64,000 bases of DNA from Eledone cirrhosa (lineage: Eukaryota), in NCBI GenBank assembly GCA_964016885.1, contig OZ024740.1, positions 168,020,001 through 168,084,000 of the forward strand, read 5' to 3'. The notes under the pieces were generated by a model. It did not search any database and had not been told where the DNA came from. It saw nothing but the letters and a program-made list of their open reading frames with translations. Positions 17,623 to 61,787 of the stretch are shown one piece after another (the first letter of the stretch is position 1; each line of letters begins with the position of its first letter). A program made the translations under genes and the position numbers.

Positions 17623-17698
<76 letters not shown>

Positions 17699-17701
<3 letters not shown>

Positions 17702-20700: not shown

Positions 20701-21297
20701 CACGAATTTGTGGTCCGTGTATCTGACTATCTTGAATTGTGGACAGCCTATGCTAGACCTATCTATTTCCCTACAAAATACTCTATCTAGATATGATCTG
20801 GATGAGCCTATGCGGTTTGTCCAAGTCCACATTGGCACATTCGGGAAATCCAATCGGTGCCTGTCAGACAGTTCAAAACGCCTGAGCAGGTTGGTGAGGC
20901 TCTTGCACCCTCCACCCCTATCCGCTAATCCCACACAGTCCCAGCGTGCATCTAAGATCCCGTTCCAGTCGCCCACTAACACTAAAGAGCGGGACGTTCC
21001 AAGAAAGGTCTCCAGACGCCGGAAGAAATCAGGCCACCCTGCTCCTGTCGGGGCATAGACGGCCACTAGCCTGAAAGCTTGCCCGTCTCCGCTGGTCACG
21101 TCCAGCACCACCAGCTTACCCTCTGGGTCCAGGAAGATGGCCCGTATGGCGAGATCCAAACCTCTCCGAAAAAGCACAGCAACTCCTCCACCCGATCCAG
21201 GACGGCTGGGAGATGCGTACACATCGTAGCCGCCGAAGATCGGTGCGAAGGCCCGTGCTTCGGAGATTCTGGTCTCGCTGATGGCCACTACATCTAT
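17699..21297 (-). mobile_element. Tx1/L1-clade LINE copy A (ORF2 + 3' UTR)
   Basis: 3' end ...GGTTAATAAAGAAATCA runs directly into (TTA)n; 5' side joins copy B's 3' UTR at 21297/21298. Confidence 0.92.
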
Positions 21298-21309
21298 CCA
21301 GTTTTCCAC
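17965..21309 (-). CDS. Tx1-like ORF2: APE endonuclease-RT-CCHC finger, open but missing ~30 N-terminal aa
   Basis: ISETR, GGGVAVLF, VYAP, GDWN, YLDRVF, TDH, YWKLN, KSPGLDG, FRPITLLN, LDQSKAFDRV, RQGCPLS, YADD, CPRC..ETVLHALVEC; 1114 aa with no stop. Confidence 0.9.
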   Translation of the reverse strand: MENWIDVVAISETRISEARAFAPIFGGYDVYASPSRPGSGGGVAVLFRRGLDLAIRAIFLDPEGKLVVLDVTSGDGQAFRLVAVYAPTGAGWPDFFRRLETFLGTSRSLVLVGDWNGILDARWDCVGLADRGGGCKSLTNLLRRFELSDRHRLDFPNVPMWTWTNRIGSSRSYLDRVFCREIDRSSIGCPQFKIVRYTDHKFVTCVLDLDRLHRRGLGYWKLNASLPARKAYRDRISELVKRALTGAIVNNKWWFALKRAIRIESIRFSKALAIEKNRAEGELVRKLDEALSKGIATDVLAAKLALDQFFNAKHEGCVVRARVRALRHEGTKAVQWARVAEARRGNKATIRSLVDHDGRMLLDPGQMCEAFQRHFAQLFGGSGGPGRGMDFSVYLDGLPRLSATEAKCCEKPITAAEVREAMTGCTRGKSPGLDGLPYELYVQMPDLFGGLLADVYCNWQQNGRIPSSVSRGAVALLRKDPNKGDNIDNFRPITLLNTEFKILAKVLAKRLALVVGGLVGEAQTCAIPDRSIHDNFHLMRYIVERVAREPGTGGSLINLDQSKAFDRVDHRYLAAVLRAAGFGPVFRGWIAAMHSDICSVVRVNGHLSEPFNIMRSVRQGCPLSSLLYVLTLEPLLHKLETLRGVPRELGCGRSVSAYADDVTVVVSNAKHIEAIGTTLREYEAVTGAMINQEKSVGLQLGTWRGRSMPSNSVVGRWTDGPVKLLGVWFGPDLQTDKNWDEVTSRVASLTQKWAERKLSLKGRAEVANAYIVSVICYRLTVVPCPKPGLTALERLLFRFLWKGRAPMVRRSICCQHPLRGGLGMPWLMMRRHALRLRHLHLFLDGDQVWSPFARRVFPQLVSLTELQSWVKRRPRGSAWRLECLQALTALDQSGNVIGGNSTSAFYRGLVEGKSDDVLGETLGVDENQLANLFGRTFGPGPMDNFQKSLAWQCYRGALPVRDKLYRHGGAVSRACPRCAQGDETVLHALVECPKIADLWVYVEHLLSRLGRIQLSSESIVRIAPPSSFSREGQAVFICLVAMAKEIVWWTRLKGLKTSTYLFGDALIDFFKFHLKRKIRVEKEVLSSQHFVERWVREARMARVNGPTLSLSIYL

Positions 21310-24300
21310 CTTTAATTTACAGATATATACTCAGAGTAGGCCCATTCACTCGGGCCATTCTTGCTTCTCTCACCCATCTTTCAACAAAATGCTGGGAAGA
21401 GAGCACTTCCCTCTCTACTCTGATTTTCCTTTTCAAATGAAATTTGAAAAAGTCAGTCAGAGCATCACCGAAGAGGTAAGTGCTCGTCTTCAGCCCTTTC
21501 AAACGTGTCCACCATACTATCTCTTTCGCCATGGCCACCAGACAGATAAAAACTGCCTGCCCTTCCCGGCTAAAGGAGGAGGGCGGGGCAATCCTCACGA
21601 TGGACTCAGATGATAGCCGGATCCGTCCTAAACGCGACAGCAGGTGTTCGACATAAACCAACAAGTCAGCAATTTTCGGACACTGGACGAGTGCGTGCTG
21701 GACGGTTTCGTCGCCCTGCGCGCATCTCGGACATACCCGGCTGACGGCACCTCCATGTCTGTAGAGTTTATCCCGAACTGGCAAGGCTCCTCGGTAGCAC
21801 TGCCAGGCCAGAGATTTCTGGAAGTTGTCCATAGGCCCCGGCCCGAAAGTTCTTCCGAAGAGATTGGCTAGTTGATTTTCGTCGACGCCTAGAGTTTCCC
21901 CAATTACGTCGTCGCTCTTCCCCTCCACTAATCCTCTATAGAACGCCGAGGTGGAGTTTCCACCGATCACATTGCCCGATTGGTCGAGGGCTGTGAGCGC
22001 CTGAAGACATTCCAGTCTCCAGGCGCTCCCTCTCGGTCTTCGCTTGACCCAGGACTGCAGCTCCGTCAAGGAAACGAGCTGGGGAAATATGTGTCTAGCA
22101 AACGGCGCCCACACCTGATCAACGTCGAGGAAGAGGTGGAGATGTCGTAGCATGAGCGCGTGCCTGCGCATCATCAGCCACGGCATGCCCAGCCCTCCAC
22201 GTAGCGGGTGTTGACAACAGATGGACCGCCTGACCATCGGAGCGCGTCCCTTCCACAAAAAGCGAAAGAGCAAACGCTCCAGCGCAGTCAGGCGAGGCTT
22301 AGGACAAGGTACGACGGTCAGGCGGTAGCAGATGACAGACGCGATGTACGCGTTAGCCACCTCCACTCGACCTTTCAGGGATAGCTTCCTCTCCGCCCAT
22401 TTCTGGGTGAGAGAAGCCACCCTGCTCGTCACCTCGTCCCAGTTTTTGTCCGTCTGGAGGTCCGGACCGAACCAGACCCCTAGCAATTTAACCGGTCCGT
22501 CCAGCGTCCGACGACGCTGTTGGACGGCATGGACCTGCCTCTCCAGGTGCCGAGCTGCAGGCCCACTGACTTTTCCTGGTTGATCATTGCTCCGGTCACC
22601 GCTTCGTATTCTCTTAGTGTAGTGCCGATCACCTAGATGTGTTTGGCGTTCGACACCACTACGGTGACATCGTCCGCGTATGCTGACACGGATCTTCCGC
22701 ATCCCAGTTCGCGCGGGACGCCCCTCAACGTCTCCAGTTTGTGCAGTAATGATATCTATGTTATCCCCCTTGTTCGGATCCTTTCTCAGCAGTGCCACCG
22801 CTCCTCGGCTCACAGAACTGGGAATTCTCCCGTTCTGTTGCCAGTTGCAGTAGACATCCGCAAAGAGGCCTCCGAACAAGCCTGGCATCTGTACGTAAAG
22901 TTCATAGGGCAGACCATCCAAACCAGGCGATTTACCCCTTGTGCAGCCAGTCATTGCCTCCCTTACTTCAGCGGCTGTTATCGGCTTTTCGCAACACTCG
23001 GTCTCAGTGGCCGAGAGCTGCGGCAGTCCGTCGAGGTAGACACTAAAGTCCATCCCTCGATCTGGCCCACCGCTGCCCCCAAACAGCTGAGCGAAGTGTC
23101 GCTGAAAAGCTTCACACATTTTCCAGGGATCGAGTAGCATGCGCCCGTCGTGGTTCACCAAAGACCGGATCGTGGCTTTGTTGCCACGACGCGCCTCCGC
23201 CACTCGGGCCCATTGAACGGCTTTCGACCCCTCGTGTCTGAGAGCACGCACCCTTGCTCTGACAACGCAGCCTTCGTGCTTTGCATTGAAGAATTGGTCA
23301 AGGGCCAATTTCGCCGCAAGCACGTCGGACGCAATGCCTTTGCTAAGCGCCTCGTCTAATTTTCTAACTAGTTCTCCCTCTGCTCTATTTTTCTCTATTG
23401 CTAAAGCCTCACTAAACCTAATGGATTCTATTCTAATCGCTCTTTTCAGAGCAAACCACCACTTGTTGTTGACGATGGCCCCCGTCAACGCCCGCTTAAC
23501 TAGTTCGCTAATCCGGTCTCTGTAGGCCTTGCGCGCTGGTAAGGACGCGTTTAGCTTCCAGTAGCCGGGTCCTCGTCTATGAAGCCTATCTAAGTCAAGC
23601 ACACAGATCACGAATTTGTGGTCCGTGTATCTGACTATCTTGAATTGTGGACAGCCTATGCTAGACCTATCTATTTCCCTACAAAATACTCTATCTAGAT
23701 ATGATCTGGATGACCCTATGCGATTTCTCCAAGTCCACATTGGCACATTCGGAAATCCAATCGGTGCCTGTCAGACAGTTCAAAACGCCTGAGCAGGTTG
23801 GTGAGGCTCTTGCACCCTCCACCCCTATCCGCTAATCCCACACAGTCCCAGCGTGCATCTAAGATCCCGTTCCAGTCGCCCACTAACACTAAAGAGCGGG
23901 ACGTTCCAAGAAAGGTCTCCAGACGCCGGAAGAAATCAGGCCGCCTGGTCCTGTCGGGGCATAGACGGCCACTAGTCTGAAAGCTTGCCCGTCTCCGCTG
24001 GTCACGTCCAACACCACCAGCTTACCCTCTGGGTCCAGGAAGATGGCCCGTATGGCGAGATCCAAACCTCTCCGAAAAAGCACAGCAACTCCTCCCCCCG
24101 ATCCAGGACGGCTGGGAGATGCGTACACATCGTAGCCGCCGAAGATCGGTGCGAAGGCCCATGCTTCGGAGATTCTGGTCTCGCTGATGGCCACTACATC
24201 TATGTTTAGTGACCTGAGGTCGTTGAGCAGCTGGCCCTGCTTCCATGACGACCCCAAGCCACGCGCATTTATGCTGCCTATTCTGAGTGAGGTCATGTTT

Positions 24301-26650
24301 AAAATAGAGTGGAAAAGATGGGAAAGACCACTTACCGTACTTTTCGTAGAGGAGGGATGGTTTTTACATCCCTTTTCACTTGATCGTCTGGTGAAGGGAC
24401 CGTTGAATCGTCCCTTCGGCTGGTCGTCGGCTCTTCTATGAGTATGTCTGAATATACTCTTCGATTGATAGTTCCTCCTAGGTCCCTGAAATCACCAACT
24501 GCGTTGGGGAATTTCGTTTTAATGTTTGTGTATTGTTTCTGTACTATTTTTAGCAGTCTTATGTTAGTTGGCGTTTTGATTGGTGCTGGTATTATGTAGT
24601 CGTGTTGTGAAATGTCTGTGTGTTCAATTATGTAAGTCATTAGTTTCTTGTTGTGTGTATTTATTGCCGTGCATTTGTTTTTCTGGGGGTGGAGTGTGGT
24701 TCTGCTATTTTCTTGTCGTTGTTGCTGGGTGTGTGTGTTTTGTTGTTGTGTTTGCGATGTTGGTGCTTGTGGTGGTGGTGTTGAAGGTGTTGTTGGCGGT
24801 GGGGTTTTTGCCGGTGGTGATGGTGGTGCTAGTGTGGATGGTGATGGTGTTGGTGGTGTTGCTGCTGTGAGTCTCTTTGCAGTAGACTTTACCCTTTTCT
24901 CATTTCTTTCCTCCCTTTTCAAAGGCGACGATGCGCTGCTTCTGCGTTTGTGCCTTCTTACGACCTTTTGCCATCCCTCTCCCACCTCACACTCCATGTC
25001 TGATTCTGTGAGGTCGGGGAGGGGTACCAGCTCCACTCTTTCACTTGTTGTTGTTGGTGATGTTTGCACTGGAGTCTCTGTTGCAGCTGCATTTGGTATT
25101 GCTGTTGTTGTTGTTAATATTTCCACTGCTGCTGCTGTTTTTGATTTCCGTGGCGTGGGTATAGGTGCGACGGACCTATCGGTCATGGTTGCCGCTTGTC
25201 CTGTTGCTGGTAGCCGTGGAGCCGGTTTCGGAAGGAGGGGGGTTTTCTCCTTTCTCAGGGTCTTCTCGTTGCAGAAGGCCCTGAGGTGAGTCTTCGATCC
25301 ACAGCGAAAGCATTTCGGGCGTTTGCCCTCAACACTTATGGGCAGTTGAGTGCCGTTATCGAAGTCTATCACATCCGGGATAGCTTCGATGCACTCCTGG
25401 TTGGTTTGGATTAGCATCTCAATGGAGGTGCCGACCCAATCTTCTCTTACTTTTTTCTGTACTTGCAGTACAGTTGTTTTGTCCTCGATTCCGACGAGGA
25501 CAGACGCGGCCAGCCAAGAAGGGGTCATCCCGGGGGGGACGTGGGTCAGTTTGACCCTCACAATTTTTTGCCCGCAGTAGGAGGGCACCAACACCATCTC
25601 CTCGCTCCTTAGGGTCACTACGGATTGAGCCTTTGCCTCCTGGGGTGTGGCAAAAAGTACGTCTACGGTGGCATATTTTTTGCCTCGGGTGATGTGCGTT
25701 TTCCGCTGCCACACAGACCGCAAGGCTTTTTGTATTTGAGCCTCTGTGGCTCTTTCAACCCTACGGGATTTTGTACTTACTGTACGGTACGTGACCGTAC
25801 AGTGCTGTTGGGTTTCGAAAAATGTTTCCGCTGCCTTGCAGATTGCTCGGTGTCCAGTCTTTGTCACCATCTTCTTCGCTTCCTCTAATTCCTCATTTGT
25901 TATGAGGATTGTTTCCAGGTTTTTCGCAATACCTGCAAATGAGATTATTTTTTCTTTGCTGCTGTTGTTGTTGTTGTCGTCAGAGCTGCTGTTACTTTTG
26001 TTGTTGCTGCAGGTACTACGACTACTGCCTCCGCCGCTGTTGCTGTGGTTGTTGTTGGTGTTGCTGCTGCTAATACTGTTGTTGTTTATGCTGCTGGTGA
26101 TGCTGTTGCGGCTGCTACTGTTGTTTTCATTGTCACTGTTGCTGTTGTTATTACGGCTGCTACTGCTATTATTCCTGACGTCAGACGAATGAAATGGGTT
26201 TTCGTATTTCCCGCACACCTGTTTCGTCGTTGTCGTCGTCGTCGTGGAGAAATCTTGCACGCTTTGCACGAGACTTTTCTTTTTTGTCGTCGCTTGCGAA
26301 AGAGAAGGGAGGGAGAGAGACACATTTAAAGAAGGGAGGGAGAGAGACAATCTTCTCTCTGCTGTAGTGATGATTGAGGAAGAAGAAGACGGAATGAGTG
26401 GGAGTGACCTATGAAAATTCTTTTTCGTAGCCATGTTGTTTTTTTTGTTTAAAATAAATAGTGGGCACAAAACCCCAATAAGCAGTTATTTAACCCCGAA
26501 GGGCCAAATAACGGGCAGAAAGACCCCTCTCACGAGGAGGAGGGTGTTTTTGTCTACAAGTTCGTTAAAGTTTTAAACAATTTACAATTGTTATAGCGTT
26601 CAAAATTTACAATACCTTACAGAGCCGAGCCTCCGTCAACCATAGCATTC
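21298..26650 (-). mobile_element. Tx1-like LINE copy B (5' UTR, ORF1, disrupted ORF2)
   Basis: 5' end abuts (AAT)n at ~26651. ORF2 starts at 24296 (MTSLRIGSINARGL), has frameshifts near 23945 and 23750, and a ~435-bp RT deletion at ~22751. Confidence 0.92.
24332..26433 (-). CDS. Tx1-like ORF1 (gag-like, CCHC knuckle), intact
   Basis: Open frame, likely start MATKKNF at 26433; Asn/Ser-rich N-terminus, globular core, CFRCGSKTHLRAFC knuckle, Pro/Thr linker, conserved C-terminal block. Confidence 0.85.
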
Positions 26651-34183: not shown

Positions 34184-34276
<93 letters not shown>

Positions 34277-34320
34277 AAGAAGAAGAAGAAGAAGAAGAAG
34301 AAGAAGAAGAAGAAGAAGAA
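34184..34320. repeat. Compound (AAT)n(GAA)n between tail-to-tail Dong-like and Tx1-like elements
   Basis: Direct reading. Confidence 0.95.
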
Positions 34321-36604
34321 TGTTTTCTTTATTAACCACAAGGGTTCACATAAAGTAGATATTAAGGACAGTACAGGACAATACAGGACGGTACAAATGG
34401 GCATTTCTGCGTGTAAAAAAACAGAGGTTGAAATAAAATAACAAAGAAAAATTCCCCAATAGGGGGGAGACTTCCGAGGGACATTTGTGGAGAAAGCCCA
34501 TTAAAAGACCACAGTGGCCCTGACCACCAGGGCAAGTGCCCTCTCCCAGTTTTCCACCTTTAATTTACAGACACATACTCAGAGAAGGCCCATTCATTCG
34601 GGCCATACTTGCTTCTCTCGCCCATCTTTCAACAAAATGCTGGGAAGAGAGCACTTCCCTCTCTACCCTGATTTTCCTTTTCAAATAAAATTTGAAAAAG
34701 TTAATCAGGGCATCACCAAAGAGGTAAGTGCTCGTCTTCAGCCCTTTCAAACGTGTCCACCATACTATCTCTTTCGCCATGGCCACCAGACAGATAAAAA
34801 CTGCCTGCCCTTCCAGGCTAAAGGAAGGGGGCGGGGCAATCCTCACGATGGACTCAGCTGATAGCTGGATAGGTCCTACACGTGACAGCAGGTGTTCGAC
34901 ATAAACCCACAAGTCAGCAATGCTCGGACACTGGACGAGTGCGTGCAGGACGGTTTCGTCGCCCTGCACGCATCTCGGACATGCCCGGCTGACGGCACCT
35001 CCATGCCTGTAGAGTTTATCCCGAACTGGCAAAGCTCCTCGGTTGCACTGCCAGGCCAGGGATTTCTGGAAGTTGTCCATAGGCCCCGGCCCGAAAGTCA
35101 TTCCGAAGAGATTGGCTAGTTGATTTTCGTCGACGCCTAGAGTTTCTCCAAGTACGTCGTCGCTCTTCCCCTCCACTAATCCCCTATAGAACGCCAAGGT
35201 GGAGTTTCCACCGATCACATTGCCCGATTGGTCGAGGGCTGTGAGCGCCTGAAGACATTCAAGTCTCCAAGCGCTCCCTCTCGGTCTTCGCTTGACCCAG
35301 GACTGCAGCTCCGTCACGGAGACGAGCTGGGGAAAAACGCGTCTAGCAAACGGCGACCACACCTGATCACCGTCGAGGAAGAGGTGGAGATGTCGTAGCC
35401 TGAGCGCGTGTCTGCGCATCATCAGCCACGGCATGCCCAGCCCTCCACGTAGCGGGTGTTGACAGCAGATGGACCGCCTGATCATCGGAGCGCGTCCCTT
35501 CCACAAGAAGCGAAAGAGCAAACGCTCCAGCGCAGTCAGGCGGGGCTTAGGACAAGGTACGACGGTCAGGCGGTAGTAGATGACGGATGCGATGTACGCA
35601 TTCGCCACCTCCGCTCGACCTTTCAGGGATAGCTTCCTCTCGGCCCATTTCTGGGTGAGAGAAGCCACCCTGCTCGTCACCTCGTCCCAGTTTTTGTCCG
35701 TCTGGAGGTCTGGACCGAACCAGACCCCTAGCAATTTAACCGGTCCGTCCGTCCAGCGCCCGACGACGCTGTTGGACGGCATGGACCTGCCTCTCCAGGT
35801 GCCGAGCTGCAGGCCCACTGACTTTTCCTGGTTGATCATTGCTCCTGTCACCGCTTCGTATTCTCTTAGTGTAGTGCCGATCGCCTCGATGTGTTTGGCG
35901 TTCGACACCACTACGGTGACATCGTCGGCATATGCTGACACGGATCTTCCGCATCCTAGTTCGCGCGGGACCCCCCTCAACGTCTCCAGTTTGTGCAGTA
36001 ATGGCTCGAGAGTCAATACGTACAAGAGGGACGAGAGGGGACATCCTTGGCGGACCGAGCGCATGATGTTGAACGGTTCCGAAAGGTGACCGTTCACTCT
36101 CACTACAGAGCAGATGTCGCTGTGCATGGCAGCGATCCAGCCTCTGAAGACGGGCCCAAAGCCAGCCGCCCTCAGGACTGCCGCTAGGTAACGATGGTCG
36201 ACCCTATCGAAGGCTTTCGACTGATCTAAATTGATCAAAGACCCACCCGTGCCAGGTTCCCTAGCTACCCTCTCTACGATGTATCGCATGAGGTGGAAGT
36301 TGTCGTGGATGGATCTGTCGGGAATGGCGCATGTCTGTGCCTCTCCCACCAGACCACCAACGACAAGCGCCAACCTCTTTGCTAGCACCTTGGCCAAAAT
36401 CTTGAACTCTGTGTTTAGCAGAGTTATGGGCCTAAAATTATCTATGTTATCCCCCTTGTTCGGATCCTTTCTCAGCAGCGCCACCGCTCCTCGGCTCACA
36501 GAGCTGGGAAATCTCCCGTTCTGTTGCCAGTTGCAGTAGACGTCCGCCAAGAGGCCTCCGAACAAGTTTGGCATTTGTACGTAAAGTTCATAGGGCAGAC
36601 CACC
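34321..36604 (-). mobile_element. Tx1-like LINE copy C, 5'-truncated, RT-to-end frame open (34565-36600)
   Basis: Near-identical to copy A from GLPYELY onward; 5' end in (AAT)n, 3' end in (TTC)n/(TTA)n. Confidence 0.92.
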
Positions 36605-36651
36605 AAATAATAATAATAATAATGATGTCAAATCAAAACTATAATAATAAT

Positions 36652-46796: not shown

Positions 46797-46985
46797 TAAT
46801 TGTCTCTACTATTGGCACAAGGCCAGAAATTATCCCAGTGCATTATTGGTACTTTATTTTATCGACCCCGTAAGGATGAAAGGCAAAGTTAACCTCGGCA
46901 GGATTTGAACTCAGACCGTAAAAGGGCGTAACTCTATGGTACAAAGCATGGCGTCCGACCTTCCACCGATACTGCCAATCCACCG
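46797..46985 (-). mobile_element. tRNA-SINE
   Basis: Reverse complement of the 9121 family, including short ATT tail. Confidence 0.85.
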
Positions 46986-48728: not shown

Positions 48729-49821
48729 GTCCCTGCGAAGAACGTTAGGCACTTCATATCTAGATAGCCTCACAAATGTGAAATGAAACAAAATTAAAGT
48801 TATTGACCAATATCAATAAAGCAGAAACAAAATTTCTATGGGAATGAAATGAGAAGAGAGTCCGTGGAACATCTGGTATCAACAAGAAAGATAATAGGGA
48901 AAAAGAGGAGATGCGAACAAAGATCAAAACAAATAGATTGGTGAGTGGCAAAGGAGGCTAACCACAATCCACAGATGGTTAGGGACCGTACGAAATTGAA
49001 ACATGAACGCCTACTCCGAATGTCATGGCATCTGTTTGGTTGATTTCTTAAGACAGTAATGTGTGATGTGAAGTATATCTAGCTGCTATTTCAACCACAT
49101 AGAGCTTAGCTTCACAGACACACACATGCACATACTCAAACAAACACGCGCGTACGCACAGGCACGCATAAATAGACATCTAAATCCTATAAACCAGTGT
49201 GCCATGAAATCGATCGTTCGATAAAAGAGAATAGGAACTAAAATATCCCATGATGCCATGTACCAGAAAATTATTAGCCTTTATTGAAAGTATCACGAAA
49301 TCACTAGCGAATACTTTCAATTTACTTAACATCTTAACAATCTTTTCATCGTAAGATTTATTGCACGTCTAGTCATCCGTAAATAAAGAGATATTTCCGA
49401 GAACAATTTACATGACCCCGACCCCTACCTTGCTCCATACTCACACATGTGTAAACATATACACACATTACAACACTGTAGATTACGAAAATGAATTTCT
49501 TCACTTTTCCACGGATTATTGCTATGAACACATCATGTAACTTAACAGTCGAATCAGCATTCCAACCAAGGATTTTTTTTTTTATACCAGTGATTAATCT
49601 TATCGAGCTCAATTTCCTGTGATTGGGTATTTCAAATGGAAAGACGTCCAACTTCCATCGAAGACGTATCATATTCGATTCATTAAACACTAAAGGTTAA
49701 GAATAGAAGCTAAACAAATATAATCGAAAAGAAAATCAACCTATCCTTATTGATTTGATTTGATTTGATTTGTGTTCAATCGGTTAAATAACAGTAATAA
49801 TAATAATAATAATAATAATAA

Positions 49822-49954
49822 TTGTTTCTACTTTAGGCACAAGGCCAGCAATTACCCAGTGCATTACTGGTACTTTATTTTATCGACCTCGTAAGGATGA
49901 AAGGCAAAGTAAACCTCGGCGGGATTTACTTTGCCTTTCATCCTTACGAGGTCG

Positions 49955-49958: not shown

Positions 49959-49988
<30 letters not shown>

Positions 49989-49991
<3 letters not shown>

Positions 49992-52900
49992 TTTCATTTA
50001 TTGGCCACAAGGGCCGACATATAGGGGACAATACAAAAGACTGGGACAGTGGGGTTTTACAGAAAAATCGAGTAAACAATATGAATAAACAAAGTAACAA
50101 TAACAAAATAACAATAAAGTAACAAGAAAATTACAAGAAAACATTCCTCAATAGGGGGGATGACCACCTAGGGTTCGCTCAGGTACCCCACCAGTCCTGA
50201 ACGACCCGACGCTTCGAGAGAACCCTGGAAGAGCACACCTCTCCTCTTCAAATTTACCTACCTACAGCTGCATGACCAGAGTAGGCCCACTCACACGGGC
50301 CATTCTCGCCACATTCACCCACCTTTCAGCAATGTACTAGGAGGCAGCACTTCTCTCTCCACCCTCACCTTCCTTTCCAAGTGAAACTTGAAAAAGTTGA
50401 TGAGGGATTGGCCGAAGAGAAAAATGTCTGTCTTCAGTCCTTTCAATCTCGTCCACCATACAACCTCTTTCGCTACTGCCACCAGACAGAGGAAAATTGC
50501 CTACCCTTCCTGGCCAAAAGAAGGCGGCGGGTCGATCTTCACTATGGACTCGGCCGATAGCCGAATCCGTTCTACACGCGACAACAGCTGTTCAACATAA
50601 CTCCACAAGTCAGTAATGCACGGACACTGGACGAGTGCGTGCAGAACGGTTTCGTCGCTCTGCGCGCATCTCGGGCAGGTCCGTCTGACAGCACTTCCGT
50701 GCCTGTAGAGTTTATCTCGATCCGGTAGTGCCCCCGGGTAGCGCTGCCAAGCGAGGGATTTTTGGAAATTATCCATCGTCCACGGCTCGAAAGTCCTCCG
50801 GTACAGACTGGTTAGTTCGACTTCGTTGACTCCCAGAGCCTCTCTGAGTGCGTCGTCGCACTTGCCCACCACTAATCCTCTATAGAACTCGAGAGTGGAA
50901 GTTCCACTGACCGCATTGCCCGCCTGGTAGAGGGCAGTGAGTGCCTGGCAACATTCCAGATGCCAGTCACCCAGTCTCGGTCTCTTCTTGACCCAGGACT
51001 GCAACTCAGTCAAAGAAACGAGCTGCGGAAAGGCCCGTCTGACAAACGGCGACCACACCTGTTCACCGTTTAGGCAGAATATCTGGAGATGCCGCAGCCT
51101 CAGCGCGTGCCTGCTCATCATTAGCCACGGCATGCCCAGCCCTCCACGTAGAGGGTGCTGGCAGCAGATGGACCGCCTCACCAGCGGAACCTGACCCCTC
51201 CACAAGAATTTGAAGAGGAGCCGCTCCAAGATAGCGAGGCGCGAACGGGGGCAAGGGACGACAGTCAGACGGTAGTAGATGACGGACGCGATGTACGCGT
51301 TCGCCACCACCGCCCGACCTTTCAGTGATAGCTTCATCCCAGCCCATTTCTGGGTGAGACTGACTACCCTGCCCGTCACCTCAACTGACTACCCTGCCCT
51401 GCAACAGCTCCAGCTTCCGCAGTAAAGGCTCGAGAGTCAATACGTACAGAAGGGAGGAGAGAGGGCACCCTTGACGGACAGATCGGGAGACCTGAAACGG
51501 TTCTGAAAGGTGGCCATTAATTTTGAGCATCGAGCAGGTGCCACTGTGCATTGCAGCGATCCAGCTTCTGAAGACGGGGCCGAAGCCAGCCGCCTTGAGG
51601 ACAGCCTCCAGGTACCGATGGTCGACCCTATCGAATGCTTTCGATTGATCTGAATTGATCAGAGCCCCACCGAAGCCAGGTTTACACCCTACCCTCTCTA
51701 TGATGTATCGCATTAGGTGGAGGTTGTCGTGTATGGACCTGGTTGGGATTGCACAAGTTTGCGCCTCCCCAACCAAATTCCCGACGACAAGCGCCAACCT
51801 CTTCGCTAATACCCTGGCCAAAATCTTAAACTCTGTGTTGAGTAGAGTTATGGGCCTGAAATTGTCTAATGTATCCCTCTTGGTCTCGTCTTTCCTTATC
51901 AGCGTCACTACGCCCCGGCTCACAGAACTGGGAATACTCCCGTTTTGCTGCCAGTTGCAGTAGAGCGCTTCGAGGAAATTGGAGAACAAGTCAGGCATAT
52001 TTACGTAAAGCTCGTAGGGCAGACTATCCAAACCGGGTGACTTGCGCCTCATGCAGCCTACAAGGGCATCCTGAATCTCGGCTGAAGTAATTGGCCTTTC
52101 GCAGCGCCCAGCGTCAGCCGTCGAGAGTTGCGGCAAGCCATCGAGGTAGGGACTGAAGTCGGCCACCATCTCTGACCCGCCATTTCCCCCGAACAACCGA
52201 GCAAAATGTTGGCGAAAGGCCTCACACATCCTCTTGGAATCGCTCAGCTCGAGCCCGTCTCGGTCCGTCAAAGACCGAATCGTGGTTTTATTATCACGCT
52301 GCGCCTCTGCCACGCGGGCCCATCGAACAGCTTTGGTTCCCTCGTTTCTCAGAGCGCGCGCCTTAGCTCTGACAATGCAACCTTCGTGTTTCGCATTGAA
52401 GAAATGGTCTAATGCCATTCTCGCCGCTAGCACATCAGTTGCAATGCCACTACCAATAGCCTCGTCTAACTTATTTACCAGCTCTCCCTCCTTTCTATTT
52501 TTCTCTAATGCTACTTCTTTGCTAAACTCTATCGACATTACTCTAATCTCTCTTTTGAGAGCCCCCCACCATCTATTGTTGACGACTCCCCCTGTCAACT
52601 TTTTCTTAACTAAATTGTTGACCTGGTCCCTGTAAGCCTTACGTGCCGGAAATGACATGTTTAGCTTCCAGTAACCAGGTCCTAACCTACGCGTCTTATC
52701 TAGGTCGACCATACAGATCACAAACTTGTGATCTGAATAGGCGACCGTTTTAAAACGTGGACAGCTTACACTATTTCTGTCTATTTTCCTAATGAATATC
52801 CTGTCTATATACGATCTAGATGACCCTATGCGGTTAGCCCAGGTCCACACTGGCGCATTAGGGAAATCTAGTCGGTACCTGTCAGACAGTTGGAACTGCT

Positions 52901-55610
52901 GATCAGGTTCTTGAGGCTTTTGCACCCCCCACTCCTATCGGATATTCCCACACAGTCCCAGCGTGCGTCTAAGATGCCGTTCCAGTCCCCCGCTAACAGT
53001 AAAGGGCGAGACGTACCCAGAAAGGCTTCCAGCCGTTTAAAGAAGTCCGGCCGTCCTGCCCCAGCAGGAACATAGACGGCCACCAGTCTAAAGGCACCAC
53101 CTTCATTATTGTTCACGTCCAGGACCACCAACTTCCCGTCCGGGTCCCGGAAGATCGACCTTACCTCGAGATCCAGGCCTTTCCTAAACAGCCCTGCCAC
53201 CCCGCCTCCCATTCCCGGCTGGCTAACAGATGCAAAGATCTGATAGTCGTCGAAAATGGGGGCTAGTGCGCGCGTGTCGGAAATCCTGGTCTCGCTGACT
53301 TCAATTACATCCATTTCTATAGGCCTGAGGTCGTTGAGCAGGTGACCCTGCTTCCAGGACGATCCCAGGCCTCGAACATTTAAACATCCTACTCTTAATA
53401 CGGCCATGTTGGAAGGTTAAACAAAGAGAGAGGAAGGTTTACTTACCTTCCGGGCTCTTGTGAAGGTCGGGTTGTTCGACCTCCATAGTTAATGGGGTTT
53501 CTTTTGGGAACCCCTTTAAAAGTCTTGAAGTGGGTTTTACTTTCGGGGTTCCCACGTCCCGAGGAAAGCTGTCTCGTATTTCTTTGAATATGTCGAGCGA
53601 TATTCGCACCAGAACCAAATCTTCCGGCACGCGAAATGTGCTCGATTTAAACATTTCCCCCTCTTTTTGTATATTTTCACTTCGTGCTACGAGGGCCATC
53701 AGTTCCTTGTTGACCCTCCTGACGAGCACGAAGTTTTGTATGTTTTGTTGGTGTGATTTTATTTGTTTGCGTGGCTGTGGTGGTGATGGTTTTTGGTGGT
53801 GTTGTTTCGGTTGTATCTGTGTTTATTGTGAGTGCGATGTCTGTGGTTTCAGATGTTTGTGTGTATATTTGTTCTTGCGTCTGTTTCGGTTGTTTTCATT
53901 TGGGGGATTCTGGTGATGGTGATGGTGGTGTTGATGTTGGTGTTATTGGAGAGATGTTTGCGTGGGTGGTGTCTGCGTTTTTTATTGTGGGTGCTTTTGT
54001 GCTTTGTTGAGTTTTTTTATTTTCTTTTTGTGTTTCCTTTTTTGTATTTTGGGGGATTTTGGATTTCCCTCATCTCCACTACTGGTAGATGAGGGGTCTG
54101 TGTCTGTAAGTGTGTATGTATGTATGTTTAAGGTTTTATTGGTGTGTGTATTTTGGGGGGGAGGGGGAATTTGACAGCTTTCCTCGTTTCCCCCCTGGGT
54201 GGTCAATGTTGGTGGTGGTCTTTCTATTGGTGTTGTTGTTGGTGGTTTTGCCGGTGCAGGTGTTGGTTGTGGTCCTCGCCCCGGCGTCGGCAGCAGTGGA
54301 GCCTTTCGACCCCTTGCCTCTTTCAACAGTTGAGGGCAGAAGACTCACAAATGGGTTTTTTCCCCACAAACAAAACACTGCGGCCTTTTGACTTCGGTCA
54401 TAATGTGAATGACAGTCCCATTCTGAAGGCGGGTGTGGTCTGGGATTGTCTTCACATTCTCGGGCCTGATCTGGAGAAGAATCTCCAGGTCAACCCCGGA
54501 CCAGTCCTCTCTGGCCGTTCTGGTCACTTCTATAGGGACTGTATCCGTCCCCTCCACAATCACACACCCCAGAAGCCACCACATGTCAAGTCCTGGTTGG
54601 ATTCTGGGAATGCGGAGACGGGCCATTCTTTTTCCCATGTGGGAGGGATACATTATGACCTTGCTGGTTTTTCAAGGAGTCATGGCGTGTTTCATCGCGA
54701 GGGCTTCTGACTTGAACAACACCGAAATGGTGCCGTACTGTCTGCCCCTCTGGTGTCTTCTCTGATGCACCTCAGCGCGACTTCGATATCTTCTTGTGGG
54801 ATTAACGCTGCCCTTTTGGTTTGTGCTGAGATGCATCTATAATGCACCGTTTTGCGCTCCACTGCCTCAATAGCTTCTACCGGGACAGTTAAGTTGGCCC
54901 AAGTTTGCTCTTGCTTGATGAGCTTCCATGCCTGGGCCAACTTTTCATCTTTGTTTGAGAGGTCCATGCTGAAGCATCGCCTCTTTTCTGCTGCTGCCGC
55001 AGCGAAAGTGGTCTTGTTGGGGGTGTTGTTGACGTTGTTCTTGTTGGTGTTGTTGTTAGGACTGTCGCTGTTATCATTGGTGTCTTTGTTGCCACCGTTG
55101 TTCTCGGTGCAGTTGGTATTGTTGCTGTTGGTGTTGTCGCTATTTGTTTTCATGTTAGTGGTGTTGATATTGTTGTTGTATTTTTTTTTTTTTTTTTGTT
55201 ATCTGTATTTTCGTTGTCGCTGTTACTGTCATTTTTTTCAAAATTAGATTTCTTATTGGTATCATTGGTGTCTTTGTTTACCTTGTTTGTGGTGGTGTTT
55301 GTGTTATCAATGTGTTACTTTCGCTGTAGCGCTCCTCTCAACTTCTACATCGTTGTCGCACGACAGCCGACATATCGCGGGGGGGGGGGGGGGGGGCTCA
55401 GCCATGTTTTTTTTTCTTCGTAAATGTTTTAACATGTAAAACAAAGTTCAAATATTTGGGCCAAAAGGCCCAAATGTTATACTTTCCCCTTCACGGGGCA
55501 AAGTCTAAGGGCTTATATCCCTTACACAACAAGAAATATTTAACAACAAATAATTTAAACAGGCAAATAAAGCGACTTACTGTGAGCGAGCAAAATACGT
55601 CGCTTAGACC
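49989..55610 (-). mobile_element. Tx1-like LINE family 2, full span, decayed
   Basis: (AAT)n at both ends. ORF1 (ATG ~55405 to stop 53439) is frameshifted, with knuckle CFVCGEKTHL. ORF2 starts at 53407 (CLNVRGL) and is split; the YADD region is deleted at ~51385. Confidence 0.92.
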
Positions 55611-55672
<62 letters not shown>

Positions 55673-55674
<2 letters not shown>

Positions 55675-58600
55675 CTTTCTTTATTAACCACAAGGGTTTA
55701 CATAAAGTAGACATTAAGTACAGTACAGGACAATACAGGACGGTACAAATGGGCATTTCTGCGTGTAAAAAAAACAAAAACAGGATGTAACAAAAATAAC
55801 AATGAAAAATTCCCCCAAGGGGGGAGACTTCCGAGGGACATTTGTGGAGAAAGCCCATTAAAAGGCCACAGTGACCCTGACCACTAGGGCAAGTGCCCTC
55901 TCCCAGTTTTCCACCTTTAATTTACAGACACATACTCAGAGTAGGCCTATTCACTCGGGCCATACTTGCTTCTTTCACATATCTTTCAACAAAATGCTGG
56001 GAAGAGAGCACTTCCCTCTCTACCCTGATTTTCCTTTTCAAATGAAATTTGAAAAAGTTAATCAGGGCATCACCGAAGAGGTAAGTGCTCGTCTTCAGCC
56101 CTTTCAAACGTGTTCACCATACTATCTCTTTCGCCATGGCCACCAGACAGATAAAAACTGCCTGCCCTTCCCGGCTAAAGTAAGAAGGCGGGGCTTCCTC
56201 ACGATGGACTCAGCTGATAGCTGGATCCGTCCTACACGTGACAGCAGGTGTTCGAATAACCCACAAGTCAGCAATGCTCGGACACTGGACGAGTGCGTGC
56301 AGGACTGTTTCGTCGCCCTGCGCGCATCTCGGACATGCCCAGCTGACGGCACCTCCATGCCTGTAGAGTTTATCCCGAACTGGCAGAGCTCCTCGGTAGC
56401 ACTGCCAGGCCAGGGATTTCTTGAAGTTGTCCATAGGCCCCGGCCCGAAAGTCCTTCCGAAGAGATTGGCTAGTTGATTTTCGTCGACGCCTAGATTTGC
56501 TCCAAGTACGTTGTCGATCTTCCCCTCCACTAATCCTCTATAGAACGCCAAGGTGGAGTTTCCACCGATCACATAGCCCGATTGGTCGAGGGCTGTGAGC
56601 GCCTGAAGACATTCCAGTCTCCAAGCGCTCCCTCTCGGTCTTCGCTTGACCCAGGACTGCAGCTCGGTCAAGTAGACGAGCTGGGGAAAGACGTGTCTAG
56701 CAAACGGCGACCATACCTGATCACCGACGAAGAAGAGGTGGAGATGTCTTAGCCTGAGCGCGTGTCTGCACATCATCAGCCACGGCATGCCCAGCCCTCC
56801 ACGTAGCGGGTGCTGACAGCATATGGACCCCCTGACCATCGGAGCGCGTCCCTTCCACAAAGAGAGAAAGAGCAAACGCTCCAGCGCAGTCAGGCGGGGC
56901 TTAGGACAAGGTACGACGGTCAGGCGGTAGTAGATGACGGACGCGATGTATGCGTTAGCCACCTCTGCTCGACCTTTCAGGTATAGCTTCCTCTCCGCCC
57001 ATTTCTGGGTGAGAGAAGCCTCCCTGCTCGTCACCTCGTCCCAGTTTTTGTCCGTCTGGAGGTCTGGACCGAACCAGACCCTAGCAATTTAACCGGTCCG
57101 TCCGTCCAGCGCCCGACGACGCTGTTGGACGGCATGGACCTGCCTCTCCACGTGCCGAGCTGCAGGCCCACTGACTTTTCCTGGTTGATCATTGCTCCTG
57201 TCACCGCTTCGTATTCTCTTAGTGTAGTGCCGATCGCCTCGATGTGTTTGGCATTCGACACCACTACGGTGACATCGTTCGCATATACTGACACGGATCT
57301 TCCGCATCCTAGTTCGCGCGGGACCCCCCCCCCCCCCCTCAACGTCTTCAGTTTGTGCAGTAATGGCTCGAGAGTCAATACGTACAAGAGGGACGAGAGG
57401 GGACATCCTTGGCGGACCGAGCGCATGATGTTGAACGGTTCCGAAAGGTGACCGTTCACTCTCACCACAGAGCAGATGTCGCTGTGCATAGCAGCGATCC
57501 AGCCTCTGAAGACGGGCCCAAAGCCAGCCGCCCTTAGGACTGCTGCTAGGTAACGATGGTCGACCCTATCAAAAGCTTTCGACTGATCTAAATTGATCCA
57601 GGACCCACCCGTGAAAGGTTCCCTAGCTACCCTCTCTACGATGTATCGCATGAGGTGGAGGTTGTCGTGGATGGATCTGTCGGGAATGGCGCATGTCTGC
57701 GACTCTCCCATCAGACCACCAACGACAAGCGCCAACCTCTTTGCTAACACCTTGGCCAAAATCTTGAACTCTGTGTTTAGCAGAGTTATGGGCCTGAAAT
57801 TATCTATGTTATCCCCCTTGTTCGGATCCTTTCTCAGCAGCGCTACAGCTCCTCGGCTCACAGAACTGGGAATTCTCCCGTTCTATTGCCAGTTGCATCT
57901 GTACGTAAAGTTCATAGGGCAGACCATCCAAACCAGGCGATTTACCCCTTGTGCAGCCAGTCATTGCCTCCCGTACTTCAGCGGCTGTTATCGGCTTTTC
58001 GCAACACTCGGCCTCAGTGGCCGAGAGCTGCGGCAGTCCGTCGAGGTAGACACTAAAGTCCATCCCTCGATCTGGCCCACCGCTGCCCCCGAACAGCTGT
58101 GCGAAGTGTCGCTGAAAAGCTTCACACATTTGCCCGGGATCGAGTAGCATGGCCCGTTGTGGTCCACCAAAGACCGGATCGTGGCTTTGTTGCCACGACG
58201 CGCCTCCGCCACTCGGGCCCATTGAACGGCTTTCGTCCCCTCGTGTCTGAGAGCACCCACCCTAGCTCTGACAACGCAGCCTTCGTGCTTTGCATTGAAG
58301 AATTGGTCAAGGGCCAATTTCGCCGCAAGTACGTCGGTCGCGATGCCTTTGCTAAGCGCCTCGTCTAATTTTCTAACTAGTTCTCCCTCTGCTCTATTTT
58401 TCTCTATTGCTAACGCCTTACTAAACCTAATGGACTCTATTCTAATCGCTATTTTAAGAGCAAACCACCAGTTGTTGTTGACGATGGCCCCCGTCAAAGC
58501 CCGCTTAACTAGTTCGCTAATCCGGTCTCTGTAGGCCTTGCGCGCTGGTAAGGACGCGTTTAGTTTCCAGTAGCCGTGTCCTCGTCTATGAAGCCTATCT

Positions 58601-61568
58601 AAGTCAAGCACACAGATCACGAATTTGTGGTCCGTGTAGCTGACTATCTTGAATTGTGGACAGCCTATGCTAGACCTATCTATTTCCCTACAAAATACTC
58701 TATCTAGATCTGATCTGGATGACCCTATGCGATTTCTCCAAGTCCACATTGGCACATTCGGGAAATCCAATCGGTACCTGTCAGACAGTTCAAAACGCCT
58801 GAGCAGGTTGGTGAGGCTCTTGCACCCTCCTCCCCTATCCGCTAATCCCACACAGTCCCAGCGTGCATCTAAGATCCCCTTCCAGTCGCCCACTAACACT
58901 AAAGAGCGGGACGTTCCAAGAAAGGTCTCCAGACGCCGGAAGAAATCAGGCCGCCCTGCTCCTGTCGGGGCATAGACGGCCACTAGCCTGAAAGCTTTCC
59001 CGTCTCCGCTGGTCACGTCCAACACCACTAACTTACCTTCTGGGTCCAGGAAAATGGCCCGTATGGCGAGATCCAAACCTCTCCGAAAAAGCACAGCAAC
59101 TCCTCCCCCCGATCCCGGACGGCTGGAGATGCGTACACATCGTAGCCGCCGAAGATCGGTGCGAAGGCCCGTGCTTCGGAGATTCTGGTCTCGCTGATGG
59201 CCACTACATCTATGTTTAGTGACCTGAGGTCGTTGAGCAGGTGGCCCTGCTTCCATGACGACCCCAAGCCATGCGCATTTATGCTGCCTATTCTGAGTGA
59301 GGTCATGTTGAAATGGAGTGGAAAAGATGGGAAAGACCACTTACCTTACTTCTCGTAGAAGAAGGATGGTTTCTCCATCCTTTTCACTGCTTGTGGCCTC
59401 CTCCGGAAGGATGTCCTTATAAATCCTCCTGGAGAGTGCTTGTCGGAAGTCTCCGATGTCTTTGGGGAATTTTTGTTTTTGTGTCGTGTACGTTTTCTGT
59501 GTGATGCGAGTGATTTGTATGTGTGGAGGTGGTGTGAAATTTTGGGTTGTTGTGTAGTCATTTTCTGTGATGCTGGTGTTGTGTTTGATGTAGTGTAATA
59601 ATTGGTTGTTGTTCAAATTTAATTGTTTCTACTTTTGGCACAAGGCCAGCAATTACCCAGTGTATTACTGGTACTTTATTTTTGTTGTTGTTCAAATTTA
59701 ATGCTGTGTAGTGTGTATCGTTTTGGTTGTTTTGTTTTGTTTGCGTTTGTTGTGGGTTTGTTTCTGTTTCGCTTTTTGGTGACTTTTGTGGTGTTGAGGA
59801 TGGTAGTGTTGGGGTTAATGATGGTGATGGTGTTGGTGTTTGTGGTGATGTGGTTGGTGATGCTGGTGTGGATGGTGGCATAGCTGTCCTAACTTTTTTG
59901 TTTGATAGTTTATTTGTTTCCCACTGTATTTTGTTTTTGGAGGGGGAGGGAAAGGAATTTTTTCTTTTTTGGTTTCTTTTACTTTTTTCTTTTTTTCTTT
60001 TTTCCTGATACCGTTTCCCACTCCTCGTCGTCACAATATGTCTCCAGTTGCGATAGGTCGGGGAGTGGAAAATCCTCCACAGGCGTTCGTTTTGTTTGTG
60101 GCGTGGTGGATGGTGTAGGCGCTCGTGCTAGTTCTGGTGCGTTGGGTGGTGGTGGTGGTGGTGGTTTGCTACTGTTGCTGGGGTTGTTGCTCTTACAGTT
60201 CCTTCTGTTGTTGCTGCTACAGTTGTTGCTGCCATTTCTGCTGCTGGTCGTGTTGATGGTTGAGTCACTGGGGTGGGTAAAAGAGGTGGCCTCAACCTTT
60301 TAGCCTGAGGGCAGAAAGCCCTTAGGTGGGTTCCTTCACCACAAACGACACACCTAGGCCTTCTGCCCTCGACGATTACGGTGAGGTGGCTGCCGTCAAT
60401 GAGGTCTATTACCTCTGAGATCTCCTCAATTCTTTTTTGGTCCGCTTGGATCAGGAGCTCCATCCCAGATCCGGACCAGTTCTCCTGCTTTTCTTTCGCT
60501 ATTTCGATTATCTTGGTGTTGGCTTCGATGCCGGCGAGGACGGCAGCCATTAGCCAGGGAATTTCGATGGCCGGTGGTACGTGGGTCACCCTGATCTTTA
60601 CGAGTCTCTGGCCACAATAGCTTGGGACGAGTGTGAAGTTGTCACTTCTTAATGGGGCCATGGAGTGTTCTCTGGCCTCCTGTGTTGTTTCAAAGAACAC
60701 ATCCACGGCTCTATATTTCTGCCCACGTCTGATGTGGGGTTTTTTTGCCCACACATGTCCCAAAGCTTTTTGGATTTGGGACTCGGATGCCCGTTCCACT
60801 CGGCGCGATTTTATGTTAATCGTCCGATAAGACACGGTGCATAGGCGCCGATGCTCCATTTTATTAGGTGGTGGGGTGGCCCTGTACCCATTTTTCTTTA
60901 CCATTCTTTTGGCTTCTTCTAATCCCTCCTGAGTTACCTGGAATGCTTCGCACTTTTTTGCTACTCTGGCAAAAGACAGGGTGGTTTTCTTAATTTCATT
61001 GTTGCTGTTGTTGTTATCGTTATTTTTGTTATTGCTAATTTTAGTTTCAGTTGTGGTGGTGGTGGCGTCAGTGGTGTTCGGTGTGGAAGAGTTCATTTTG
61101 GGTGAATTCATTTCGATATCACGAGATCATTTATTTTTTTATTTTGTTTCTGTTGTCGCTGTGGTGGTGGTGGGGGTGGCGGCTTCAACACCTGCAGTCA
61201 TTGGTAATGGCGGGAAATGAATATCTGCCTGAAACAAGTTTAAAATATTGCTACTGCTTATATTTTTAGTGTTGGCAAACGTAGTAATATTTACAATGGT
61301 GGTGTCGGTGTGAGGTGCTAGTTTGTGAGGAAGCTGTGACTCTGAGTCGTCCATGATTTTTTCAAATAAAAATTTTTTGTTTGATAATTATAAAAGTTTA
61401 AATTTTGGGCTCAAGGCCCCAATCTTTTTGAGTGTCCTTTTCAGATAACAATGTATGTGCACTTATATACAGTTACAATAAAAATTGTCCATAAATCGCA
61501 ATTTTAAACAGCGAAAATAACAAACCTTTGCGGAGCTCACGATAATACGCTTTACTACGTAGGTCGCC
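55673..61568 (-). mobile_element. Tx1-like LINE copy D, full span, decayed
   Basis: (AAT)n at both ends. ORF1 from ~61354 (knuckle CVVCGEGTHLRAFC) to 59341. ORF2 59306-55922 is near-identical to copies A-C but frameshifted. Confidence 0.92.
59624..59683 (-). mobile_element. 60-bp SINE 3' fragment inserted in copy D ORF1, 19-bp TSD
   Basis: GTTGTTGTTCAAATTTAAT at 59605-59623 and 59684-59702. Confidence 0.9.
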
Positions 61569-61597
61569 AATAATAATAATAATAATAATAATAATAA

Positions 61598-61787
61598 TTG
61601 TTTCTACTTTAGGCACAAGGCCAGGAATTTGAAGGGAAGGGGAAAGTTGATTAAATCGACCCCAGTGCATTACTGGTACTTTATTTTATCGACCTCGTAG
61701 GGATGAAAGGTAAAGTTAACCTCGGCGGGATATGAACTCAGAACGCAAAGGGCCGTAACTCTCTGCCACGTTGAATGGTGTCCGACG
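61598..61787 (-). mobile_element. tRNA-SINE (longer variant) whose (ATT)n tail abuts the Tx1 copy D 5' end
   Basis: Same core and tail as 9121, plus an extra GAAGGGAAGGGGAAAGTTGATTAAATCGACC segment. Confidence 0.85.

What the first reader, a model, noticed from the sequence alone, without database searches (positions are those of the whole stretch)
55673..59350. Tx1-like LINEs appear to carry ORF2 as one big intron (candidate spliced ORF1-only mRNA)
Seen, donors: a G|GTAAGT consensus sits at the ORF1 stop in all three copies with ORF1 (minus strand 24335-24330, 53446-53441, 59344-59339). Family 2 is divergent and has the motif in a different codon phase (GAA G|GT AAG TAA vs CG|G TAA), so protein coding does not explain it. 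Seen, acceptors: each intact 3' UTR has a long AG-free U-rich tract ending in CAG (17787-17785, 34409-34407, 55761-55759; family 2 at 50043-50041), about 35-75 nt before AATAAA. Joining donor to acceptor removes all of ORF2 (~3.4-3.6 kb). In family 1 this extends ORF1 with RNAHLYRP(A/V)LSCT(L/V)LN(V/I)YFM*; copies differ by conservative or synonymous changes and a TAA/TGA stop swap. Family 2 gives an unrelated tail (VFCIVPYMSALVANK*). Established: Drosophila copia makes a spliced gag subgenomic RNA. Inference: a LINE analogue that sets the ORF1p:ORF2p ratio and could yield ORF2-less retrocopies. I do not know of this being described for Tx1, but could not search.
Basis: partly seen in the sequence, partly recalled or inferred. 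Interest (0 to 1): 0.85.

Follow-up and report, generated by a model that had tools for sequence, protein, structure and literature searches.

The report
Octopus LINE keeps mid-element splice donor
A large, young family of jumping genes in an octopus-like genome keeps a textbook splice-donor signal exactly where its first protein gene ends, which likely lets the cell's splicing machinery protect the full-length RNA and would allow a short first-protein-only message, but the matching acceptor is not conserved and no spliced product has been seen.

Summary
The donor half got stronger. Their ORF2 DNA is 68-82% identical among the four aligned, only 33% of four-fold sites are shared, and two codon phases occur. 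It is missing in 26 of 26 distant relatives. The acceptor half got weaker. The family-1 CAG is absent at the homologous site in family 3. Families 2 and 3 have YAGs elsewhere, and family 4 has none in 7 of 8 ends. No ORF1-to-3'UTR retrocopy was found among at least 7,002 3' ends. No RNA run was on record, so splicing is untested. Best reading: a selected U1-binding 5' splice site used as in Ty1/copia, mostly unspliced and guarding full-length RNA, with a minor ORF1-only isoform in some lineages (0.45). 'ORF2 is one conserved intron' is not established.

The parts
55671..61568 (-). Family-1 (subfamily 1b) Tx1-like LINE, full length but degenerate, flanked by (ATT)n
   Evidence: Pfam Exo_endo_phos on 57991-59340
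59341..61354 (-). ORF1 of this copy (broken by frameshifts and a short insert near 59620-59690); ends Arg-TAA inside the donor
   Evidence: intact sister P0001 has C-X2-C-X4-H-X4-C
59339..59347 (-). Conserved 5' splice-donor / U1-complementary site AAG|GTAAGT overlapping the ORF1 stop (phase 2)
59307..59338 (-). Pyrimidine-rich ORF1-ORF2 spacer ending in CAAC before the ORF2 ATG
55922..59306 (-). ORF2 (APE endonuclease, RT, C-terminal zinc finger), frameshifted in this copy
   Evidence: intact 1139-aa sister in L107
55759..55810 (-). U-rich tract and candidate acceptor CAG, 73 nt before AATAAA; best-scoring of about 120 YAGs in 8 of 8 family-1 copies, but not conserved in families 3 and 4
55671..55758 (-). 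Candidate terminal exon with an in-frame stop after 20 codons and AATAAA (55685-55680); its last ~30 nt are shared by all families
49987..55610 (-). Family-2 copy, head-to-tail behind the family-1 copy; donor AAG|GTAAGT with GT at 53446 (phase 1), candidate CAG at 50043-50041; about 1.1-kb internal deletion in ORF2
17697..26650 (-). Family-1a copy with intact 700-aa ORF1, donor ACG|GTAAGT with GT at 24335, a duplicated ORF2 and CAG at 17787-17785
34319..36607 (-). 5'-truncated family-1 copy with CAG at 34409-34407, ending in (TTC)n

Best explanation
This octopod Tx1-like LINE clade keeps a perfect 5' splice-donor sequence at the ORF1 stop, which likely binds U1 snRNP and is predicted to work as in Ty1/copia elements: mostly unspliced and guarding the full-length RNA, with a minor fraction that would splice to a YAG near the 3' end to give an ORF1-only mRNA. 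Shown: the site, its retention in five lineages and two codon phases, ORF1 staying open up to it, and a strong acceptor-like CAG plus short terminal exon in families 1 and 5 (weaker in family 2). Inferred: U1 binding; suppression of the AATAAA/ATTAAA hexamers in the A-rich end of ORF1; splicing; a higher ORF1p:ORF2p ratio; exclusion of the ORF2-less RNA from retrotransposition by cis-preference.
For: The donor was defined from families 1 and 2 and then found in lineages pulled by an independent ORF2 motif: family 3 AAG|GTAAGT, family 4 GAG|GTAAGT, 4c GAG|GTAGGT, family 5 CAG|GTAATT (15 of 20 scorable copies; 10 of 30 not scorable). These variants remain donor-type. It is the only strong donor-like column kept in all six aligned groups; the one other is a coding GGTGGG. 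Four-fold identity across families 1a/2/3/4 is 0.33. The site is absent in 0 of 26 distant relatives, so it is not a generic stop-codon effect. The stop always lies inside the would-be intron. The family-1 CAG ranks first of about 120 YAGs in 8 of 8 copies and sits at -73 in 37 of 51 ends, giving a stop after 20 codons in 36. Family 5, also phase 2, carries the same 3' end in 6 of 7 copies with an end found. The majority acceptors at -73, -38 and -11 all land in one register (1 in 9 by chance). Seven of 8 representatives have AATAAA/ATTAAA within 700 nt upstream of the donor (expected in A-rich DNA). Precedent: conserved Ty1/copia donor with a dual U1 role (PMC5580714, passages).
Against: The acceptor is not homologous between families. 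Family 3 has no AG at the family-1 site, its commonest YAG (-11; 14 of 16 ends) mostly gives no stop, and family 4 has no YAG after the hairpin in 7 of 8 ends. The family-2 CAG is in the top three of its element in only 2 of 7 copies and is lost in sister copy L102. AG depletion is not significant. There is no coding signal in the tail. No spliced retrocopy was found, although the junction would lie about 85 nt from the 3' end and so survive truncation: 0 exact hits, 0 of 99 non-G and 0 of 45 G-N-nonA continuations in family 1, 0 of 17 in family 2, 0 of 18 in family 3, 0 of 2 in family 5. Perfect donor look-alikes also occur unselected in family-1 ORF2: sense at 59036, antisense at 18130, 21476, 34724 and 56081.
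Confidence: 0.45

Rival explanations
1. The site binds U1 but is not productively spliced. It only suppresses premature polyadenylation or supports elongation and stability of the 6-kb RNA, and the 3'UTR AGs are incidental.
For: The donor is kept in all lineages while the acceptor turns over or is absent. No retrocopies. Poly(A) hexamers lie 140-690 nt upstream in 7 of 8 representatives. The spacer is the only non-coding spot mid-element. Human L1 keeps a 5'UTR donor that is mostly unused (PMC5860796, Discussion part 1).
Against: It does not explain why ORF1 stays open right up to the site in every lineage, or why the family-1 CAG is the best acceptor of the element and gives a stop in the last exon. 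The hexamer count is not above what A-rich DNA gives (not tested formally).
Confidence: 0.3
2. The motif is part of a translational signal (stop, hairpin and pyrimidine spacer for re-initiation at ORF2) that resembles a donor by coincidence.
For: It overlaps the ORF1 stop and lies 28-53 nt before a CAAC-ATG in all lineages. The core G|G is predicted paired in 9 of 10 representatives. The motif with its next bases supplies a stop in two frames.
Against: The hairpin beats a shuffled spacer only in family 3 (0.007) and family 2 (0.047), not in 6 others. A structure alone should tolerate compensatory change, yet the sequence is fixed while its partner arm differs. The variants seen follow donor rules.
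Confidence: 0.15
3. Shared ancestry and chance: a stop-containing heptamer simply persisted, perhaps helped by 5'/3' module swapping between families.
For: Families are still 68-82% identical in ORF2. Family 5 is a different ORF1 on a family-1 3' end, so lineages are not fully independent. Unselected perfect donors exist in ORF2.
Against: Four-fold sites are only 33% shared, the spacers next to the motif have diverged and vary from 28 to 53 nt, and the codon phase changed.
Confidence: 0.1

Closest known systems
Ty1/copia subgenomic GAG mRNA (Drosophila copia ~3-kb intron; Arabidopsis EVD shGAG; PMC5580714, passages seen)
   Same: Conserved U1-type donor near the end of the structural-protein ORF. 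Splicing would delete the polymerase ORF. In copia the spliced RNA ends at the element's own 3' signal. U1 also blocks premature termination.
   Different: Those are LTR elements with a single GAG-POL frame and shown junctions. Here the element is a bicistronic non-LTR element whose unspliced RNA already has an ORF1 stop, the acceptor is not conserved, and no junction is shown.
Human L1 splicing and SpIREs (PMC5860796: abstract and first part of Discussion seen)
   Same: A LINE that retains a conserved, mostly unused splice donor, possibly hidden by structure.
   Different: The L1 donor is in the 5'UTR, is explained by a RUNX3 site, and leaves retrocopies (about 2% of full-length insertions). 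Here the donor is at the ORF1 stop, would remove ORF2, and leaves no retrocopy.
HAL1 (half-L1) ORF1-only elements (recalled; only search listings seen)
   Same: Would be the DNA product of retrotransposing an ORF1-only RNA.
   Different: No such copy with a precise junction was found in G000.
Tx1-clade microsatellite-targeting LINEs Kibi/Koshi (PMC4494074 passages); L1-Tx1 families of Octopus vulgaris (PMC13282606 passages)
   Same: Two ORFs, APE+RT+zinc finger, CCHC in ORF1, insertion into microsatellites; 13 recently active L1-Tx1 families are listed for O. vulgaris.
   Different: The target here is mainly (ATT)n, with head-to-tail arrays. The O. vulgaris paper has no occurrence of 'splic' or 'ORF1'.

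Membership tests
Tx1 clade LINE | ORF2 with APE endonuclease, RT and C-terminal zinc finger | tested here: met
   Pfam Exo_endo_phos, RVT_1 and zf-RVT above cut-off on window 17968-21330
Tx1 clade LINE | ORF1 with RRM-like domains and a CCHC knuckle (feature recalled) | tested here: met
   C-X2-C-X4-H-X4-C in P0001. Atlas look-alikes zf-CCHC and ZCCHC3 RNA-binding domains at 0.90-0.93 (a lead). No Pfam hit at E<0.01.
Tx1 clade LINE | Target-sequence preference such as microsatellites | tested here: met
   Most of the 30 3' ends run into (ATT)n, others into (ACT)n or (GTT)n, and the window copy at 34319 into (TTC)n; 5' ends of tandem copies start in (ATT)n
Tx1 clade LINE | RT phylogeny inside the Tx1 clade (RTclass1/Repbase references) | not testable with these tools
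   No named Tx1 reference set was available, so I say Tx1-like
Copia-type spliced subgenomic RNA | Conserved U1-complementary 5' splice site at the end of the structural ORF | tested here: met
Copia-type spliced subgenomic RNA | Conserved 3' splice site | tested here: not met
   -73 (families 1, 5), -38 (family 2), -11 or -105 (family 3), none in 7 of 8 family-4 ends
Copia-type spliced subgenomic RNA | Spliced product has a stop and ends at the element's poly(A) signal | tested here: inconclusive
   Stop after 20 codons in 36 of 51 family-1-type ends and after 15 in 8 of 11 family-2 ends; mostly no stop from the family-3 -11 site
Copia-type spliced subgenomic RNA | Junction present in RNA | not testable with these tools
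   No RNA holder listed; only contigs of runs of unrecorded kind could be laid
SpIRE / HAL1-like spliced retrocopy | Genomic copies with the precise exon-exon junction | tested here: not met

The most novel reading that the evidence does not exclude
These octopod LINEs treat their whole ORF2 as a facultative intron. A donor fixed at the ORF1 stop splices to lineage-specific acceptors that re-evolved near the 3' end (3'UTR CAG in families 1, 5 and 2; possibly the ORF2 TAG stop itself in family 4). The product is a dedicated ORF1-only mRNA with a new hydrophobic C-terminal tail that is never retrotransposed: a copia-style stoichiometry switch in a non-LTR element, for which my seven literature searches found no report.
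Probability: 0.35. Interest if true: 0.78.

Novelty: new variant of a known kind. Interest (0 to 1): 0.55.

Why it matters
LINEs need much more ORF1p than ORF2p and are thought to get this from inefficient ORF2 translation; splicing is regarded as a dead end for L1 (PMC5860796). A donor under selection at the ORF1 stop would mean a LINE lineage uses U1 or the spliceosome as part of its life cycle, converging on the Ty1/copia solution. It also means more than 4,400 strong donors, many in young intact copies and tandem arrays, are scattered through this genome, where they could splice into host exons. One RNA-seq junction count would settle the main question.

Tried and rejected
RNA evidence: no RNA holder listed (six runs of unrecorded kind). 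I laid 4 of the 6 runs (X1, X4, X5, X6) on an intact copy: no donor-to-acceptor joint among the 15 joints shown, 1,079 not shown. I laid X4 alone on a tandem stretch holding a 3' end and the next ORF1: none among the 9 joints listed; only 6 of 141 loose ends were shown. X4 contigs of depth 78 and 22 run through the donor unspliced. These are contigs of unknown kind that drop rare variants, so this counts neither way. X4 depth is about 20-fold higher over the last 200-400 nt and equal on both sides of the CAG; contig depth cannot rank parts, so I do not use it.

ORF1 C-terminus searches for proteins with the spliced tail found no homologue at all. Earlier scan notes: none.

My idea that a selected hairpin hides the donor: pairing is predicted but is explained by spacer composition in 6 of 8 representatives; kept only for families 2 and 3. 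A conserved acceptor inside ORF2: 69 AG sites are kept in all six groups, none with a convincing tract (top 12 inspected). A 47-51-nt GT-AG mini-intron in the family-5 spacer: removal would not put ORF1 in frame with ORF2 (phase 2) and no spliced copy was seen (low power).

Limits of the retrocopy searches: exact matches only; continuations starting G-x-A were not covered; one search excluded the exact family-1 exon by its last letter, which searches cover; about 20 of the 99 non-G rows are chance matches or deletions. Of 71 metagenome loci I used the 28 whose match starts within 8 residues of the ORF2 start; 2 had no ORF1. The acceptor score and U1 score are my own crude counts.
Full report
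Context. The window lies on C1 of a 3.0-Gb animal assembly. The best named ORF2 hit is a fragment in an Octopus sinensis gene model (64% over 12% of the query), so I treat the host as an octopod (inference). The elements are two-ORF non-LTR retrotransposons with APE, RT and zf-RVT in ORF2 and a CCHC knuckle in ORF1. They sit in (ATT)n and often form 6-kb head-to-tail arrays. Fully intact copies exist (L091, L094, L107), so family 1 is young. The copy named in the finding is degenerate.

Observation. All donors, CAGs and AATAAAs are at the stated places. Family 1 has at least 4,412 donors and 7,002 3' ends, and family 2 has 324 donors. Two different family-1 ORF1s end ACG|GTAAGT and AAG|GTAAGT. 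The phase is 2 in 30 of 30 family-1 copies and 1 in 19 of 30 family-2 copies. The 24336^17784 junction would span 6.55 kb because ORF2 is duplicated there.

Donor test. A degenerate ORF2 motif chosen to exclude families 1 and 2 gave 523 hits. The 30 loci read included three new lineages, each with a donor at the ORF1 stop: family 3 AAG|GTAAGT (phase 1, TGA), family 4 GAG|GTAAGT with variant GAG|GTAGGT, and family 5 CAG|GTAATT. Family-5 phase is 2 by homology of the ORF1 C-terminus, although the longest-open count was split 11 to 9. Family-4 phase rests on one locus, and the 4c copies lack ORF1 upstream. ORF2 DNA identity among families 1-4 is 68-82%. Only 93 of 283 four-fold sites are identical across 1a, 2, 3 and 4, while the seven donor bases are all identical; because the phase differs, no base is stop-constrained in all four. 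Family 1a differs from family 3 by an apparent 43-nt insertion just upstream (my reading), which moved the phase and left the motif intact. None of 26 distant relatives (about 24-33% identity) has such a site at its ORF1 stop. The donor is real, clade-specific and probably selected.

Acceptor test. Among 89 distinct 3' ends: the family-1/5 type has CAG at -73 in 37 of 51 (3 have no YAG); family 2 has CAG at -38 in 9 of 11; family 3 types have YAG at -11 in 14 of 16 and TAG near -105 in 4 of 10; family 4 has none in 7 of 8; 3 ends were unclassified. At the family-1 site, family 3 keeps the flanks but not the AG. AG scarcity in the U-rich tract is within shuffle expectation. In favour: the family-1 CAG is the best of about 120 YAGs in 8 of 8 copies, and the ORF2 TAG stop is in the top three in 5 of 7 family-4 copies (post hoc). 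The -73, -38 and -11 sites share one reading register (1 in 9 by chance), so the family-2 tail is in register with family 1 rather than unrelated. Against: the -11 site mostly gives a non-stop message, and the tail shows no frame-specific silent bias.

Retrocopies. The junction would lie about 85 nt from the 3' end, so nearly any retrocopy of a spliced RNA would show it. None was found in families 1, 2, 3 or 5. Spliced RNA therefore supplied roughly under 0.1% of family-1 insertions (my estimate from 0 in at least 7,002 ends, allowing for exact matching). Cis-preference would predict few such copies (PMC5860796 Discussion), so this limits the model without refuting it.

RNA. No run on record as RNA holds the element. 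The contig lays are reported under Tried and rejected only.

Structure. The G|G core is predicted paired in 9 of 10 representatives, but only families 3 and 2 beat a shuffled spacer. AATAAA/ATTAAA lies within 700 nt upstream in 7 of 8.

Mechanism. A fixed U1-complementary sequence with a labile acceptor resembles what was reported for Arabidopsis Ty1/copia, where donor quality correlates best with splicing and U1 also blocks premature termination (PMC5580714 passages). I commit to that dual-use model at 0.45. U1 without productive splicing gets 0.30, a translational signal 0.15 and chance 0.10. Everything after the sequence conservation is inferred.

Novelty. Seven full-text searches listed human L1 splicing, TART splicing and copia subgenomic RNAs, but no paper whose title or abstract start reports an ORF1-stop donor or ORF2-as-intron in a Tx1-like LINE. 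Most hits were seen as listings only, and the library lacks most subscription journals and Repbase Reports. Papers opened: PMC5860796 (abstract, outline, Discussion part 1 of 2), PMC5580714, PMC13282606 and PMC4494074 (keyword passages). HAL1 and the Tx1 ORF1 architecture are recalled. Verdict: observation confirmed, interpretation partly supported, new variant of a known kind, interest 0.55.

Noticed in passing
L233-L261 (family 5 spacer): The spacer reads GT...TAG over 47-51 nt in most copies, with the AG five bases before the ORF2 ATG. It could be a mini-intron, or an acceptor for an upstream donor that would give an ORF2-only RNA. The first option was checked (no fusion frame, no retrocopy); the second was not.
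   Followed up: partly
window 26617-26609 (-); L091, L092, L105 5'UTRs: The family-1a 5'UTR has a weaker donor-like AAG|GTATTG or AAG|GTATAG about 35 nt from the element's 5' end.
   Followed up: no
window 18130, 21476, 34724, 56081 (+): A perfect antisense donor AG|GTAAGT lies near the end of family-1 ORF2; it is absent from the family-2 window copy. It could exonise into host genes.
   Followed up: no
G000 C1:55.42-55.45 Mb, 56.16-56.18 Mb, 57.09-57.10 Mb and others: Head-to-tail arrays of 3-5 full-length copies at about 6-kb spacing, apparently from insertion into the element's own (ATT)n tail; the share of full-length copies is unusually high (4,412 donors to 7,002 3' ends).
   Followed up: partly
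window 17697-26650 (-): One ORF1 is followed by an ORF2 with an internal deletion of about 435 nt and then a second, nearly complete ORF2 joined at 21298/21297 (possible template jump).
   Followed up: partly
L262-L293; families 1a, 1b, 5: Three different 5'UTR-ORF1 modules share the family-1 ORF2/3' end, i.e. repeated 5' module replacement.
   Followed up: partly
window 26679-29085, 33241-34218, 37567-38517 (+); 30737-32346 (+): Other retroelement pieces on the plus strand (RVT_1 and zf-RVT hits). Their end recurs next to (ATT)n tails of the Tx1-like copies, suggesting a shared microsatellite target.
   Followed up: no
window 9114-9314, 36641-36844, 46795-46997, 49792-49927, 59620-59690, 61568-61786: A recurrent short interspersed repeat with an (ATT)n tail; a fragment of it interrupts ORF1 of the copy in the finding.
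   Followed up: no
family-1 ORF1 end and spacer (L039, L045): The last ~45 nt of family-1 ORF1 are largely the reverse complement of the spacer and can form a long stem around the donor; they look like an inserted inverted duplication relative to family 3.
   Followed up: partly
runs X5, X6: Runs labelled as two other organisms hold contigs about 99% identical to family-1 ORF2 over 0.8-1.2 kb at depth about 10: close relatives, contamination or diet; not resolved.
   Followed up: no
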